Source: an uncultured Thermoplasmata archaeon (GTDB lineage: Archaea; Thermoplasmatota; Thermoplasmata; UBA10834). Taken from it: a DNA stretch of 64,000 nt. The position numbers and the translations under genes are program-made. Below are positions 44,317 to 50,193 of this stretch, piece after piece. The stretch's first letter is position 1; each line of letters begins with the position of its first letter. The stretch lies in contig CAVRDX010000001.1 in the NCBI GenBank assembly GCA_963719945.1, forward strand, positions 288,001 through 352,000. Reading direction: 5' to 3'. Below the pieces are notes generated by a model. The model had not been told where the DNA came from and made no database searches. It saw only the letters and a list, made by a program, of their open reading frames with translations.

Positions 44317-45105
44317 TCATCGTAGGGTCCCAGCGAACACCTGCCATGCCAATGCGGATTTCGCAACGAGGCTGAGGATGATGTAGACCCTCTCGCCGTG
44401 GAGATAGTCCTTCCATTTTCCTTTGGCTCTGTATTGCAGGACCATGTTCACCGCGAACACGTTGAAGAAGATCGCAAGGGATATGAATATGAAATACACG
44501 AAGGTCGGCACCGAATTCCCGGAACCCAGGAGCGCTCCGAAGAAATATATTCCCAATACTATCCATACAAGCAGCCCTGCAAAGCAGCCAAAGAAGTACG
44601 ATGTCCAATTCGTCCGCTTCGTCGTCTGGTTGTGCAGTTCCATCATCAGACCGAACAGGTTCATTGTCGCGTTGAGTGAGAATATGAGTATCAAACTGGA
44701 GAGTTCGAATATGCCACATAGCATCGCAATGACTATTACCATGACCGAGGAGCTTGCAGCATACTCATACCATCTGGCATAGTTGATCCCTTCCTTCAGG
44801 TTCCTGACGTACCATGGATATCCCTTGGGCGAGGACACAGCGAAATGAGCGATCGCAGAGATGAACAGGAACGATGCGACCATGGGTCCAAGTTGAAGGT
44901 TGATTAGAGTGTCTGTCTGGGAGTTTATGGTCTCCGTGACTGGATCATAATGCAGGAGAGTGAGATTGATGGGTAACGATGAACTCTTGCTCAACCAGAG
45001 CATCAATGTCCCTTGGATTAGGTGCAGAAAGCCCATTGCGATGTTGAATTTCCTCAGGCCCACGAATCTAGATTCCTTAACGGATTCCTCCAGATTTCCA
45101 CCCAC
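44317..45105 (-). CDS. Heliorhodopsin
   Basis: LRKFNIAMGFLHLIQG, SAIAH, RWYEYAASSSVM, LNATMNLFG, ERVYIILSLVAKSALAWQVF with the Schiff-base Lys. Confidence 0.95.
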   Translation of the reverse strand: MGGNLEESVKESRFVGLRKFNIAMGFLHLIQGTLMLWLSKSSSLPINLTLLHYDPVTETINSQTDTLINLQLGPMVASFLFISAIAHFAVSSPKGYPWYVRNLKEGINYARWYEYAASSSVMVIVIAMLCGIFELSSLILIFSLNATMNLFGLMMELHNQTTKRTNWTSYFFGCFAGLLVWIVLGIYFFGALLGSGNSVPTFVYFIFISLAIFFNVFAVNMVLQYRAKGKWKDYLHGERVYIILSLVAKSALAWQVFAGTLR

Positions 45106-45244
45106 CCTTGATTGATGACTCGAATATAATTCGTTTTCCCACTTTTCATATGGTGCTGGATATGCACCAGCAATCGACGCTCTGAGCTTTCCATTCGGTT
45201 CGGAAATTACTTGATTCTTCTATGCGATGTGTCGGTAGGTTTCC

Positions 45245-46002
45245 GTGTCACCAAACAAGGCGATTGTGAGAGCGCCCGGGTCGAGGTATTCGGACTGTCT
45301 GTCGTCGCATCCATTGAAGCGAACCATCGACCTGGTCAATGCACGCAATCAGCATGCTCGCTACCGTGCAACTCTCTCGGAATTGGGCATGGAAGTAATC
45401 TGTCTCGAAATGGATGACGAACATCCCGATTCTTGCTTTGTCGAAGATGTGGCAATTGTCCACAATGGCAAGGCATTGATGTGCAGGACCGCAAAAGAGA
45501 GCCGACAGGGAGAGGAAGGTCCAGTGCGGGAGACACTATCTCATCACGTGTCGATCGGATTCGCAGCAGCTCCTGCGACAATCGAGGGTGGCGACGTCGT
45601 CCATCTTGAAGACTGACTGATTTGCGGTGTCACACAGAGAACGAATGATGATGGAGCGAGACAGATGGGTGAATGGCTCGAGACCAAGGTTGATTTGGTT
45701 CGAGATCCGAAGATCATGCATCTCAAGAGTTTCGTCAGCTCCTTGGGAACGAACCAGCTTGTTGGTCGCGGAAAAATACTCTGAGCACGATGTTTTCGAC
45801 GGACTTGACTGTCCTGGTGGTACCAAACGAGGAATGGTATGGCTCAAACTTGATTGCCATCGATGATTCAGTAATCATGTCGAAAGGGTACCCACGCACC
45901 GAAGCCATTCTGAAATCAAATGGGTTCAGGGTCACAGCGTTGGATATGAGTGAATTCCCTAAATGCGACGGGGCTCTCACATGCCTATCGATCCTCTTCT
46001 AG
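45245..46002 (+). pseudogene. Dimethylarginine dimethylaminohydrolase / amidinotransferase family, disrupted
   Basis: HPDSCFVED, EGGDV, RTN, HLKS, DGALTCLS; in-frame TGA at 45614-45616 and two frameshifts near 45750 and 45808. Confidence 0.85.
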
Positions 46003-48151: not shown

Positions 48152-48799
48152 GTGAGTGCTGAGAAGATTCTGGAGCAGCTGCGCGGAGCCGTGCTGAAGT
48201 ACGATTCCGACGCAGCAGTGTCTGCTGCAAAGGCCGTCATCCACGCGAAGATGGATCCTCTGCAGGCGATTGAGAAAGGACTGGTTCCTGCAATACATGA
48301 TGTGGGTGAAAAGTTCGAGAAGATGGAGATATACCTCCCTGAGCTAATGCTCGCAGGGGACGCCATGAAGTCTGCTCTCGCCCTGCTTCTGCCGCTCGTA
48401 CCGAAGGGCGAGAAGACCTCCAAGGCAACCGTTGTTATCGGCACGGTCCAGGGGGATGTCCATGAGATTGGCAAGAACATCGTTTCTAGCATGCTTATGG
48501 CGGGTGGCTTCGAAGTCATCGACCTTGGCGTGAACGTCAAGACTTCTAGCTTCGTCGACGAGGCCAAGGCAAGAGGCGCCAAGATCATCGGCGCATCAGC
48601 CCTAATGTCCAGCACGATCGGATCGCAGAAGGATATCGTCGATTATCTGAGTGCGTCAGGGGACCGCAGAAAATTCACCGTTCTGATTGGAGGAGGCCCG
48701 ACCACTCAGGAATGGTCTGATGAGATAGGGGCCGATGGTTGGGGCAAGAATGCTGTGCATGCGGTCAAGCTTGCGACCAAAGCGGCCAAAGGGAGGTGA
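48152..48799 (+). CDS. Methyltransferase cognate corrinoid protein (MtmC/MtbC-like)
   Basis: Cap domain VGEKFEKMEIYLPELM, GTVQGDVHEIGKN (DxHxxG), SALMS, IGGGP, EIGADG. Confidence 0.95.
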   Translation: MSAEKILEQLRGAVLKYDSDAAVSAAKAVIHAKMDPLQAIEKGLVPAIHDVGEKFEKMEIYLPELMLAGDAMKSALALLLPLVPKGEKTSKATVVIGTVQGDVHEIGKNIVSSMLMAGGFEVIDLGVNVKTSSFVDEAKARGAKIIGASALMSSTIGSQKDIVDYLSASGDRRKFTVLIGGGPTTQEWSDEIGADGWGKNAVHAVKLATKAAKGR

Positions 48800-48804
48800 T
48801 TCGA

Positions 48805-50193
48805 GTGGTCCAGATACTAGACGTGATGCAGAAGGCGCTCGAGGGCAAGCCGATGAGCGAGACCGACTACCAGCTGAAATCCTTCGCGGCTAAGGTGAAT
48901 GCGAAGGTGAAGGAGTACGATATCCACTTCGACAGGAACACTCCGATACCCGACGATCCTACGCTCGCAGATGATGCATTCCAGGCTGCTGTCGACATTG
49001 TCGTCGAGGTGGGGGCATACTGCACCAATACGAACCGGGTAATATCCTATACCGAGAACGAAGTCAAAGAGGCTCTCAGGTTCGCACCGTCAGAAATAGA
49101 ATTCGGCGAGGGAAAGGATCGAAAAAAGCTACTGCCGAGGAGTGTGGGGGACAAGAACCCTCCATGGTGTCTCCTGGGTGCCGGCGGAGGCGCGTGCTCG
49201 AGCGAGCAGTCATTCCTCGCCCTTGTTGAGGGATACGCTGAGATACCCGAAGCGAATGCGATAACCACTCCAGCGCTCACAAAGGTGGGAGGAATGAGGA
49301 TCAGGCCTGCATCACCTCTCGAAGTCCTTGGAGCCCAGAGGAACGCGGTTCTGTTCAGAGAAGCCTGCAACCGTGTCGGTCGTCAGGGTATGCCCGTGAT
49401 GAACACGCTCTCCACTGCCGAGTCTGACATCGCCCTTGCCGGCGCGCTGCATCCGAAGTACGGCCTGCGTCAATCTGATGGCTACATGATCTGCTGCATG
49501 GATCCGATGAAGGTCGATTTCTCGAGGCTGAACAAGGCTACGGTGGCCCTTGGACTCGGCGGGCCTATCGGAATGTGCTTCGGCCCGATGATGGGGGGCT
49601 ATGCCGGGGGACCTGAAGGCACGGCCATATCGAACATAGCTCACCACATGATGGGGATACTGACATATCAGGCGAGCTGGCTTTTGCCATTCCCGCTTCA
49701 TCTCAGATATGTGTCAAGCAGCTGTCGGGAGCTCCTATGGTTGATCAGCCTATCTGGTCAGGCGATCAGCAGGAACACGCATCTTCTATCCGTCAATCTG
49801 AATTACACCTCTGCCGGTCCATCGACGCTGATGTGTCTGCTAGAGACTTCAGCATCGGTGACCGCTGCGGTGACTTCTGGATTGCACATCGAGTCACTGG
49901 GTGTGGCATCCAACAAGGAGGAGGACAGGACCACTCCGGTCGAGCCGCGGATATCGGCAGAGGTGGGGCACGCGGTAGCTGGTATGAGCCTGGCCGATGC
50001 GAACGAGCTGGTCAAGAAATTGGTCAGGGGATATGAGGACAAGCTTCAGACCCCTCCATTGGGGAAGATGCTCTTCGAAGCATGGGATGTAGAAAAGCGC
50101 AGACCCAGCAAGGAGTATATCGCGGTGTTGAAGGAGTATAGGAAGAAGATGAAGGGTTTGGGGATTGGAGTCAGTGGGGGTCCTTGGGTCTGA
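48805..50193 (+). CDS. Monomethylamine methyltransferase (MtmB) family protein lacking pyrrolysine
   Basis: IPDDPTLAD..F.A, GAYCTNTNRVI, EAC..VGRQGMPV, MKVD, GGYAGGPEG, AGPST, EPRISAEV, PPLGK; uninterrupted frame; SD GGAGGTGA. Confidence 0.9.
   Translation: MVQILDVMQKALEGKPMSETDYQLKSFAAKVNAKVKEYDIHFDRNTPIPDDPTLADDAFQAAVDIVVEVGAYCTNTNRVISYTENEVKEALRFAPSEIEFGEGKDRKKLLPRSVGDKNPPWCLLGAGGGACSSEQSFLALVEGYAEIPEANAITTPALTKVGGMRIRPASPLEVLGAQRNAVLFREACNRVGRQGMPVMNTLSTAESDIALAGALHPKYGLRQSDGYMICCMDPMKVDFSRLNKATVALGLGGPIGMCFGPMMGGYAGGPEGTAISNIAHHMMGILTYQASWLLPFPLHLRYVSSSCRELLWLISLSGQAISRNTHLLSVNLNYTSAGPSTLMCLLETSASVTAAVTSGLHIESLGVASNKEEDRTTPVEPRISAEVGHAVAGMSLADANELVKKLVRGYEDKLQTPPLGKMLFEAWDVEKRRPSKEYIAVLKEYRKKMKGLGIGVSGGPWV

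What the first reader, a model, noticed from the sequence alone, without database searches (positions are those of the whole stretch)
48152..50193. Pyrrolysine-free MtmB homologue with cognate corrinoid protein
Seen: uninterrupted 462-aa MtmB-family ORF; the position matching the Methanosarcina GRPGMGV-Pyl motif reads GRQGMPV-M (ATG 49399-49401, residue ~199). Established: characterised MtmB uses Pyl202 to activate methylamine, whereas non-Pyl members of the separate MttB family demethylate quaternary amines such as glycine betaine. Inference: an MtmB-family enzyme with a different, unknown methyl donor, probably feeding folate-linked C1 metabolism (folC and gcvH are in the window) rather than methanogenesis.
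Basis: partly seen in the sequence, partly recalled or inferred. Interest (0 to 1): 0.7.

Follow-up and report, generated by a model that had tools for sequence, protein, structure and literature searches.

The report
Pyrrolysine-free MtmB-type methyltransferase with B12 carrier
An uncultured, non-methanogenic Thermoplasmata archaeon carries an intact two-gene module (a vitamin-B12 carrier protein plus a pyrrolysine-free relative of the methanogens' methylamine methyltransferase) that probably strips a methyl group from a still unknown small methylated compound and passes it to folate. Enzymes of this kind are already known, so this is an uncharacterised subfamily and not a new principle.

Summary
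Window 48152-48799 encodes a 215-aa corrinoid protein and 48805-50193 an uninterrupted 462-aa MtmB-family protein. Met199 (ATG 49399-49401) sits where Methanosarcina MtmB has pyrrolysine.

The interpretation (a different methyl donor, feeding folate and not methane) is supported by the whole genome. I found no mcrA, no MtbA/MtaA-type enzyme and no pyl genes. The genome does hold an MtgA-like methyl-THF:corrinoid methyltransferase, RamA, MetF, Fhs and seven non-Pyl MttB genes.

The module is an order-wide trait: MtmB homologue in 48/49 genomes, none with a stop; MtgA-like and RamA in 49/49; McrA in 0/49.

The novelty was overrated. Non-Pyl MtmBs have long been known, and one (MtqB, tetramethylammonium/choline) was characterised in 2026. 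mtmB genes in non-methanogenic Thermoplasmata have been noted in MAG papers, and this scan has flagged non-Pyl MtmBs in at least 87 other genomes.

New here:
- The protein belongs to a distinct subfamily: at most 41% identity to any listed cluster representative, and 34% to the MtqB clade.
- The acidic pyrrolysine cradle is replaced by an invariant Met/Cys/aromatic pocket.
- That pocket shares two cysteines with MtqB.
- The three pocket cysteines (C230, C231, C258) are all replaced together in a sister paralog.

The substrate remains unknown.

The parts
48152..48799 (+). Gene for the cognate corrinoid (B12-binding) protein, 215 aa, GTG start
   Evidence: PF02607 + PF02310. The best NCBIfam models are MtgC, pyl_corrinoid and MtbC, all below their cut-offs. 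An orthologous gene lies directly upstream of the MtmB homologue in 11 of 11 paralog-A loci examined. It is one of only two corrinoid proteins in the genome.
48455..48472 (+). DxHxxG (DVHEIG) cobalamin lower-ligand motif of the corrinoid protein
   Evidence: Motif located by script. It is followed by SxL and GG motifs in the same ORF.
48792..48799 (+). Shine-Dalgarno-like GGAGGTGA overlapping the corrinoid gene's stop codon, 5 nt before the MtmB start
   Evidence: Read directly from the sequence. It implies a co-transcribed, translationally coupled pair; this is an inference.
48805..50193 (+). Gene for the pyrrolysine-free MtmB-family methyltransferase (paralog A), 462 aa, GTG start
   Evidence: PF05369 at 323 bits. 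PDB 1L2Q at E = 2e-68. The AlphaFold model has pLDDT 95 and superposes on 1L2Q with TM 0.94 and rmsd 1.4 A. It is the only MtmB-family gene in the genome.
49399..49401 (+). ATG codon for Met199, the position of pyrrolysine (Pyl202) in M. barkeri MtmB
   Evidence: Met at this position in 120 of 121 clade members.
49483..49500 (+). Codons for Y227-M228-I229-C230-C231-M232, a strand end lining the pocket; M228 replaces Glu229 of MtmB
   Evidence: Alignment to Pyl-type sequences. The model puts a strand at residues 227-230. C230 and C231 are invariant in 121 of 121 sequences.
49573..49581 (+). Codons for M257-C258-F259, the end of the next barrel strand; C258 replaces Glu259 of MtmB
   Evidence: The model puts a strand at residues 255-259. 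C258 is invariant in 121 of 121 sequences. It is Asp in paralog B and Cys in the MtqB clade.
49798..49806 (+). Codons for L332-N333-Y334; L332 replaces Gln333 of MtmB, and Y334 matches its Tyr335
   Evidence: Invariant in 121 of 121 sequences.

Best explanation
The pair is the substrate-specific front end of a corrinoid-dependent methyl-transfer chain that ends on tetrahydrofolate and not on coenzyme M.

Proposed chain of events:
1. The MtmB-fold TIM-barrel enzyme binds a small methylated compound in a pocket lined by Met, Cys and aromatic side chains.
2. It presents the methyl group for attack by the Co(I) form of the adjacent corrinoid protein.
3. The resulting methyl-Co(III) protein is unloaded by the genome's MtgA-like methyltransferase onto tetrahydrofolate.
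4. RamA re-reduces the corrinoid protein when it oxidises.
5. Methyl-THF is oxidised through MetF, FolD and Fhs, or used for biosynthesis.

The enzyme has neither pyrrolysine nor the acidic residues that surround it. It therefore cannot work as MtmB does on monomethylamine. Its pocket is of the same kind as that of MtqB, the tetramethylammonium/choline enzyme. The most likely donor is therefore a small, permanently charged methyl-onium compound, meaning a quaternary amine or possibly a sulfonium.

Shown here: gene integrity, family and fold, loss of the Pyl apparatus, presence of all partner enzymes, and order-wide conservation.
Inferred: the direction of methyl flow and the class of substrate.
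Unknown: the actual substrate.
For: Family and fold.

Dedicated corrinoid partner: 5-nt gap and Shine-Dalgarno sequence. The pair is conserved in 11 of 11 paralog-A loci across four genera.

Partner enzymes:
- MtgA-like protein at 270.8 bits against a cut-off of 259, found in 49/49 genomes of the order.
- RamA in 49/49.
- MetF and Fhs present.

Not methanogenic and not Pyl-using:
- McrA in 0/49 genomes.
- No URO-D-type methyltransferase.
- PylB/PylS only below their cut-offs.
- TAG is a common stop codon.

Purifying selection: MtmB homologue in 48/49 genomes without stops; 144 of 462 columns invariant over 121 sequences.

Pocket:
- Columns that are invariant in 15 Pyl-type sequences (E205, E229, Q232, E259, Q333, Y334 in M. 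barkeri numbering) are kept in only 2-16% of 129 non-Pyl representatives.
- Here they read L202, M228, C231, C258, L332 and N333.
- All six are fixed, or nearly so, within the clade.

The MtqB clade, identified by its Methanococcoides methylutens and Methanococcoides sp. AM1 members, also has Cys at 230 and 258 and Met in the pocket. This matches the published description of a sulfur- and aromatic-rich site (PMC13044021).
Against: - No biochemical data exist for this clade.
- It is only 34% identical to the MtqB clade and lies in a different, well-supported part of the tree. At least ten pocket positions differ.
- No transporter or catabolic gene that would name a substrate is linked to the pair. 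No BCCT transporter was found.
- The MtgA-like and RamA genes are not adjacent to the pair.
- The roles of the MtmB cradle residues are recalled from the structure papers. I could not confirm them in the paper library.
- The genome is 87% complete, so absences are not proof.
Confidence: 0.72

Rival explanations
1. It demethylates a non-quaternary amine without pyrrolysine. Candidates are monomethylamine or dimethylamine released from methylarginines, or sarcosine left after betaine demethylation.
For: - A dimethylargininase-like gene (NCBIfam 8e-54, below its cut-off) lies directly upstream of, and co-directional with, the sister paralog B in 12/12 genomes of one genus and in 2 genomes of another. 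It lies 2.8 kb from paralog A in four genomes of this genus.
- In another genus, paralog A sits in one operon with two MttB homologues and the corrinoid gene. This recalls stepwise demethylation.
- MtqB shows slight monomethylamine activity (PMC13044021).
- gcvH lies 4 kb downstream.
Against: - In this window the dimethylargininase-like gene is a pseudogene, with one stop and two frameshifts, while the MtmB pair is intact. The two are therefore not interdependent here.
- The tight linkage concerns paralog B, which differs in exactly the three pocket cysteines.
- No known mechanism activates an unquaternised amine in this fold without pyrrolysine.
Confidence: 0.12
2. The invariant Cys230-Cys231-Cys258 triad binds a metal such as zinc, as in MtaB or the homocysteine-binding barrels. 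The enzyme would then handle an S- or O-methyl compound (methanethiol, dimethylsulfide, methylmercaptopropionate, methanol), or a thiol acceptor.
For: - The three cysteines are invariant in 121 of 121 sequences.
- They lie at the ends of adjacent barrel strands.
- They account for three of only eight fixed differences between paralogs A and B, changing together to Ala, Ser and Asp.
- Only 2 of 129 other non-Pyl representatives have three or more Cys at the 12 pocket columns.
- Zinc sites with one Cys plus a vicinal Cys pair are known in methyl-transfer barrels (recalled: BHMT, MetH; MtaB uses Glu-Cys-Cys).
Against: - The MtqB clade has four pocket cysteines, two at the same positions. It acts on quaternary amines, and its paper mentions no metal.
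- No metal prediction could be run.
- No zinc site has been reported in this fold.
Confidence: 0.08
3. The module is mainly biosynthetic. The corrinoid protein would serve as methyl donor for the archaeal core-MetE methionine synthase, and the MtmB homologue would be one way of loading it.
For: - The pair is nearly universal in the order and sits among housekeeping genes: dph5, trm5, dcd.
- A 311-aa core-MetE is present in 11/12 genomes of the genus, and no MetH-type homocysteine domain was found.
- Characterised core-MetE enzymes accept methyl-corrinoid donors (recalled).
Against: - Loading from methyl-THF needs only the MtgA-like enzyme.
- A substrate-specific MT1 enzyme with seven MttB siblings fits catabolic or scavenging demethylation better.
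- Synteny with housekeeping genes holds only within the genus.
Confidence: 0.06
4. It is an inactive relic of a former pyrrolysine enzyme.
For: Pyrrolysine and its surrounding residues are lost.
Against: - The gene is intact and strongly conserved in 48/49 genomes, with an invariant alternative pocket.
- It is not nested within the Pyl-type clade.
- It keeps its own corrinoid partner.
Confidence: 0.02

Closest known systems
MtqB/MtqC of Methanococcoides methylutens Q3c (tetramethylammonium and choline:corrinoid methyltransferase; PMC13044021)
   Same: - Pyrrolysine-free MtmB-family enzyme of about 460 aa, encoded beside a corrinoid protein of about 215 aa.
- The acidic Pyl cradle is replaced by a sulfur- and aromatic-rich pocket.
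- Cys at the positions equivalent to 230 and 258 in both clades.
   Different: - Only 34% identity.
- The MtqB clade groups with the Pyl-type enzymes, whereas this protein lies in another well-supported group.
- At least ten pocket positions differ: N200, L202, Y227, M228, C231, F259, G260, L332, N333, Y334 here against G, M, H, L, L, M, C, Y, V, F in the MtqB clade.
- MtqB feeds coenzyme M through MtqA/MtbA in a methanogen. This organism has no such enzyme and no Mcr.
MtmB, pyrrolysine-dependent monomethylamine:corrinoid methyltransferase of Methanosarcina barkeri (PDB 1L2Q/1NTH) and of Methanomassiliicoccales
   Same: - Same family and fold: TM 0.94, rmsd 1.4 A, 33% identity.
- Same gene order, corrinoid gene then methyltransferase.
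- Conserved GRxGM motif before the Pyl position.
   Different: - Met in place of Pyl.
- E205, E229, E259 and Q333 are replaced by L, M, C and L.
- No pyl genes, MtbA or Mcr.
- In a sample of 401 genomes of the phylum, all but one of the full-length MtmB matches outside this genome carry one in-frame TAG and lie in three families of the same class. Loci fetched by name show these are Methanomassiliicoccales.
MtgB/MtgC/MtgA glycine betaine:tetrahydrofolate system of Desulfitobacterium hafniense, and other non-Pyl MttB-family systems
   Same: Same overall logic: a non-Pyl MT1 enzyme, a corrinoid protein, a pterin-binding MT2 enzyme that delivers to tetrahydrofolate, and RamA. The genome also has seven such MttB homologues and an MtgA-like gene.
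   Different: The MT1 enzyme belongs to another family (PF05369, not PF06253). Its structural similarity to MttB/MtgB is only remote (TM about 0.5).

Membership tests
MtmB family (Pfam PF05369) | Full-length match to the family profile above the curated cut-off | tested here: met
   323.2 bits against a cut-off of 25; model positions 1-449 of 450.
MtmB family (Pfam PF05369) | TIM-barrel fold that superposes on the solved MtmB structure | tested here: met
   Model pLDDT 95. TM 0.94 and rmsd 1.4 A over 452 columns to 1L2Q/1NTH.
Pyl-dependent monomethylamine methyltransferase (MtmB sensu stricto) | In-frame UAG decoded as pyrrolysine at the position of Pyl202 | tested here: not met
   ATG (Met199) at 49399-49401. 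M in 120 of 121 relatives.
Pyl-dependent monomethylamine methyltransferase (MtmB sensu stricto) | Acidic/polar residues around the pyrrolysine ring (E205, E229, E259, Q333; their roles are recalled from the structure papers) | tested here: not met
   They read L202, M228, C258 and L332 here. The same columns are invariant in 15 Pyl-type sequences.
Pyl-dependent monomethylamine methyltransferase (MtmB sensu stricto) | Pyrrolysine machinery (pylTSBCD) in the genome | tested here: not met
   PylB at 35.9 bits against a cut-off of 348; PylS C-terminal domain at 32.8 bits against 178. No tRNA-CUA found, and TAG makes up 23% of stops. The genome is 87% complete.
Pyl-dependent monomethylamine methyltransferase (MtmB sensu stricto) | Methyl delivery to coenzyme M (MtbA) and methane formation (Mcr) | tested here: not met
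   No URO-D family match. No McrA in the genome or in 49 genomes of the order.
MtqB (tetramethylammonium/choline methyltransferase) clade | Phylogenetic membership in the clade that holds the Methanococcoides enzymes | tested here: not met
   34% identity to the M. methylutens protein. The two lie in separate groups, with support 0.98 to 0.99.
MtqB (tetramethylammonium/choline methyltransferase) clade | Conserved pocket signature (M202, H227, C230, C258, M259, C260, C295, Y332, F334 in this protein's numbering) | tested here: inconclusive
   Only C230 and C258 are shared. The general Met/Cys/aromatic character is shared.
MtqB (tetramethylammonium/choline methyltransferase) clade | Methylation of cob(I)alamin or MtqC by tetramethylammonium or choline | not testable with these tools
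   Needs an enzyme assay.
Corrinoid-dependent methyl transfer to tetrahydrofolate (MT1 + corrinoid protein + MT2 + RamA) | Corrinoid protein with a B12-binding domain and DxHxxG motif next to the MT1 gene | tested here: met
   The adjacency is conserved.
Corrinoid-dependent methyl transfer to tetrahydrofolate (MT1 + corrinoid protein + MT2 + RamA) | Pterin-binding methylcorrinoid:THF methyltransferase and the reductive activase RamA in the genome | tested here: met
   NF005719 at 270.8 bits against a cut-off of 259. RACo_C_ter at 336 bits. Both are found in 49/49 genomes of the order, but neither is adjacent to the pair.
Corrinoid-dependent methyl transfer to tetrahydrofolate (MT1 + corrinoid protein + MT2 + RamA) | Physical and catalytic coupling of these particular proteins | not tested
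   No complex prediction or assay was run.

The most novel reading that the evidence does not exclude
In this clade the invariant Cys230-Cys231-Cys258 triad could be a metal- or thiol-based activating device that takes over the chemical role of pyrrolysine. In the sister paralog the triad is exchanged as a unit for Ala-Ser-Asp, and that paralog is encoded behind a dimethylargininase-like gene. Together this would let Pyl-free archaea demethylate unquaternised methylamines, for example methylamine or dimethylamine from methylarginine breakdown, or sarcosine. It would be a third solution to methyl-group activation in the MtmB fold.
Probability: 0.1. Interest if true: 0.8.

Novelty: new member of a known kind. 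Interest (0 to 1): 0.42.

Why it matters
Anaerobic demethylation of methylated amines outside the methanogens diverts methane precursors into folate-linked carbon metabolism. It appears widespread in sediments, where near-identical or roughly 91% identical copies of this pair occur in freshwater-sediment, marine-sediment and groundwater metagenomes.

Only one Pyl-free MtmB has a known substrate. This clade is a core trait of a whole archaeal order, and it comes with a clean, invariant pocket signature and a natural 'mutant' paralog. That makes it a well-defined target for finding a second substrate class, and for asking what replaces pyrrolysine chemically.

Tried and rejected
Gene neighbourhoods of database homologues could not be read, so I used the genome search and the fetch from genomes instead.
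- The single genome-contig scan, aimed at MtqB through the non-Pyl sisters of the Pyl clade, returned Methanomassiliicoccales and Acetobacterium loci, 12 of 13 of them Pyl-type. These served as Pyl-type references only.
- Cluster look-ups and a profile search gave almost no organism names. MtqB relatives were reached only with the last protein search, by guessing the 459-aa representative.
Its clade is represented by the M. methylutens and Methanococcoides sp. AM1 proteins.
- Literature searches for the MtmB active-site residues found nothing, so their roles rest on recall plus the covariation test.
- NCBIfam has no model that matches the methyltransferase.
- The protein atlas gave only generic MtmB clusters.
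- No RNA holder was listed for the stretch.
- No run holds more than a fifth of its sampled words.
- The PylS N-terminal domain search over the order is a weak test, because Methanomassiliicoccales also lack that domain (recalled).
- No BCCT transporter was found.
- I considered a functional link between the window's gene and the nearby dimethylargininase-like gene. I set it aside for this genome because that gene is a pseudogene here.
- A complex prediction of enzyme with carrier was not run, following the tool's own guidance.
Full report
**Observation**

ORF listing and translation show two co-directional genes.
- 48152(GTG)-48799 encodes a 215-aa protein with both B12-binding domains, PF02607 and PF02310. 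It has a DVHEIG motif at 48455-48472. Its best NCBIfam models are MtgC and MtbC, below their cut-offs.
- 48805(GTG)-50193 encodes 462 aa that match Pfam MtmB end to end at 323 bits. They match M. barkeri MtmB1 (1L2Q/1NTH) at E = 2e-68.

In the PDB alignment Pyl202 pairs with Met199, codon ATG at 49399-49401. The corrinoid gene's stop lies 5 nt before the methyltransferase start, and a GGAGGTGA sequence overlaps that stop.

Met199 is not an error. It is M in 120 of 121 close homologues. None of the matches in 48 genomes of the order contains a stop. An identical contig covers the codon in a freshwater-sediment run, although that run may be the source sample.

**The organism and its methyl-transfer inventory**

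The window lies in a 1.78-Mb, four-contig genome that is 87% complete. Homologues are named Thermoplasmata/Thermoplasmatota archaeon by their sources. The genome belongs to the same class as the families whose MtmB genes carry one TAG; loci fetched by name identify those as Methanomassiliicoccales.

| Feature in the own genome | Result |
|---|---|
| MtmB-family genes | one |
| MttB-family genes without stops | seven |
| Corrinoid proteins | two |
| MtgA/AcsE-like methyl-THF:corrinoid methyltransferase | one, 270.8 bits vs cut-off 259 |
| RamA | one |
| MetF | present |
| Fhs | present |
| FolP | present |
| URO-D-type MtbA/MtaA | none |
| McrA | none |
| CdhC | none |
| BCCT transporter | none |
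| PylB, PylS | only far below cut-off |

The MtgA-like gene lies next to the second corrinoid protein and two MttB genes. TAG ends 23% of long ORFs and aragorn finds no tRNA-CUA. This is the inventory of a non-methanogenic, Pyl-free methylotroph whose methyl groups go to tetrahydrofolate.

**Conservation**

In the 49 genomes of the order:

| Feature | Genomes with it |
|---|---|
| MtmB homologue (never with a stop) | 48 of 49; 12 of 12 high-quality genomes |
| MtgA-like protein | 49 of 49 |
| RamA | 49 of 49 |
| McrA | 0 of 49 |

Within the window's genus the whole neighbourhood is syntenic: dph5, corrinoid gene, mtmB homologue, trm5, dcd, M42 peptidase, gcvH.

Other genera have two paralogs.
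- Paralog A is 71-82% identical to the window's protein. It always follows a corrinoid gene (11 of 11 loci).
- Paralog B is 64-66% identical and never does (0 of 6 loci).

In one genus paralog A is the last gene of an operon reading MttB-MttB-corrinoid-MtmB.

**Place in the family**

An exhaustive search of 1.84 billion cluster representatives found 891 relatives, about 200 of them at E <= 1e-30. Nearly all of the 150 best hits listed are full-length and uninterrupted. The nearest listed representative is only 41% identical.

The column of pyrrolysine holds almost any residue in these proteins, including L, M, I, V and G. Lacking Pyl is therefore the common state of the family.

In maximum-likelihood trees:
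- The window's clade, with A and B as sisters (support 1.0), lies in a well-supported group with sequences from Bathyarchaeota, Thermoleophilia, Spirochaetes and Thorarchaeota.
- The Pyl-type enzymes of Methanomassiliicoccales and Acetobacterium form a separate group.

The gene is thus not a recent Pyl-to-Met derivative of the neighbouring order's MtmB. Identity to those enzymes is 29-31%.

**The pocket**

I read through 15 Pyl-type genes and aligned them with 129 non-Pyl representatives and 38 clade members.

| M. barkeri MtmB | State in 15 Pyl-type sequences | Kept in non-Pyl representatives | This protein |
|---|---|---|---|
| Pyl202 | invariant | 0% | M199 |
| E205 | 93% (one exception) | 16% | L202 |
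| E229 | invariant | 3% | M228 |
| Q232 | invariant | 3% | C231 |
| E259 | invariant | 10% | C258 |
| Q333 | invariant | 2% | L332 |
| Y334 | invariant | 5% | N333 |
| Y335 | (not in the list of differing columns) | (not measured) | Y334 (retained) |

E205, E229, E259, Q333 and Y335 are the residues I recall as surrounding the pyrrolysine ring in the crystal structures. I could not confirm this in the paper library. The residue types at those numbers and the covariation with Pyl both agree with the recollection.

The signature M199-N200-L202-Y227-M228-C230-C231-M232-M257-C258-F259-F296-L332-N333-Y334 is fixed, or nearly so, in 121 clade sequences. Even the nearest other subfamilies do not share it.

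The AlphaFold model has pLDDT 95 and pTM 0.94. It superposes on 1L2Q with TM 0.94 and rmsd 1.4 A. It places these residues at the C-terminal ends of successive barrel strands: 227-230, 255-259, 292-295 and 329-334. That is where a TIM-barrel active site lies.

**Comparison with the one characterised Pyl-free MtmB**

PMC13044021 makes three relevant points:
- MtqB of Methanococcoides methylutens Q3c is a non-Pyl MtmB homologue that methylates cob(I)alamin from tetramethylammonium and choline.
- The docked site is rich in sulfur-containing and aromatic residues.

The last protein search identified that clade through its M. methylutens and Methanococcoides sp. AM1 members, both 459 aa. The window's protein is 34% identical to it and lies in a different part of the tree, whereas the MtqB clade groups with the Pyl-type enzymes as the paper reports.

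The MtqB clade's pocket reads V/I-G-x-M, H227, C230, C258-M259-C260, C295, Y332, F334 in this protein's numbering. The two clades therefore share the loss of the acidic cradle, Cys at 230 and 258, and a Met/Cys/aromatic lining. They differ at ten or more positions. I conclude that the enzyme works like MtqB in kind but is not a member of its clade. It probably has a different substrate.

**The cysteine triad and paralog B**

Only eight columns are fixed differently between paralogs A and B. Three of them are C230 to A, C231 to S and C258 to D. Only 2 of 129 other non-Pyl representatives have three or more Cys at the 12 pocket columns. The three cysteines therefore behave as one functional unit.

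That unit may set substrate specificity, or it may be a metal site. The metal idea is weakened because the MtqB clade has four pocket cysteines and its paper mentions no metal.

Paralog B is preceded by a co-directional dimethylargininase-like gene in 12 of 12 genomes of one genus and in two genomes of another. This hints at a link to methylarginine-derived amines.

In the window the homologous gene (45242-46002) is a pseudogene, with one stop and two single-base insertions relative to intact orthologues. Paralog A evidently does not depend on it.

**What is known already**

- MAG studies have recorded mtmB, mttB and the H4F methyl branch in non-methanogenic Thermoplasmata orders next to Methanomassiliicoccales, and have proposed anaerobic methylotrophy (PMC11264602; bioRxiv 10.1101/2020.03.09.984617).
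- Public annotation already calls these proteins monomethylamine:corrinoid methyltransferase, which is almost certainly wrong as to substrate.
- This scan's own notes hold 113 findings of non-Pyl MtmB in at least 87 genomes, with other subfamilies sitting in purine-, histidine- or amide-related contexts. Those notes are unchecked.

**Verdict**

The gene pair is real, intact and strongly conserved. It is an uncharacterised subfamily of a known kind of enzyme, embedded in a complete tetrahydrofolate-linked corrinoid methyl-transfer system. The substrate is unknown. A small quaternary amine (or a sulfonium) is the best guess, by analogy with the pocket of MtqB.

Interest is moderate. The cysteine triad, its concerted replacement in paralog B, and that paralog's dimethylargininase-like neighbour are the most useful new leads.

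Noticed in passing
window 45242-46002 (+): Dimethylargininase (DDAH)-like pseudogene. It has one in-frame stop and single-base insertions at 45758 and 45811 relative to intact orthologues in two genomes of the same genus. Intact copies lie directly upstream of MtmB paralog B in 12/12 genomes of another genus.
   Followed up: partly
window 44317-45105 (-): Intact heliorhodopsin; its best solved relative is 6IS6 (E = 7e-84). A heliorhodopsin gene also lies beside MtmB paralog B in two genomes of a sister genus (L031, L041). Heliorhodopsin, the DDAH-like gene and the MtmB homologues thus tend to travel together.
   Followed up: partly
L036:5987-11268 and L037:5969-11283 (- strand; genomes G028, G027): Operon MttB-MttB-corrinoid protein-MtmB paralog A. 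Three substrate-specific methyltransferases share one corrinoid gene, which is reminiscent of stepwise demethylation.
   Followed up: partly
G000 C1:233184-238095 (about 50 kb before the window): The genome's second corrinoid module: two non-Pyl MttB genes and a corrinoid protein, divergent from the only MtgA-like methyl-THF methyltransferase. Five further MttB genes are scattered elsewhere.
   Followed up: partly
G000 C3:129046-129912: Short archaeal 'core' MetE (311-aa ORF), with no MetH-type homocysteine domain in the genus. Enzymes of this type are recalled to take methyl groups from corrinoids, so the corrinoid proteins may also feed methionine synthesis.
   Followed up: no
Both are far from the finding.
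   Followed up: no
G313:C28:140282-141619 (L027/L045; Candidatus Methanoprimaticola sp. MG2): A Pyl-free MtmB homologue inside a Methanomassiliicoccales genome. It is sister to the Pyl-type clade, has Phe at the Pyl position, and keeps most of the acidic cradle (E205, E259, H, D, W, Y, Y). It looks like a recent loss of pyrrolysine, unlike the window's clade.
   Followed up: partly
order-wide, e.g. G026:C1:885718-888520: Many genomes of the order have a second MtgA-like gene paired divergently with a second RamA gene. The window's genome has one of each.
   Followed up: no
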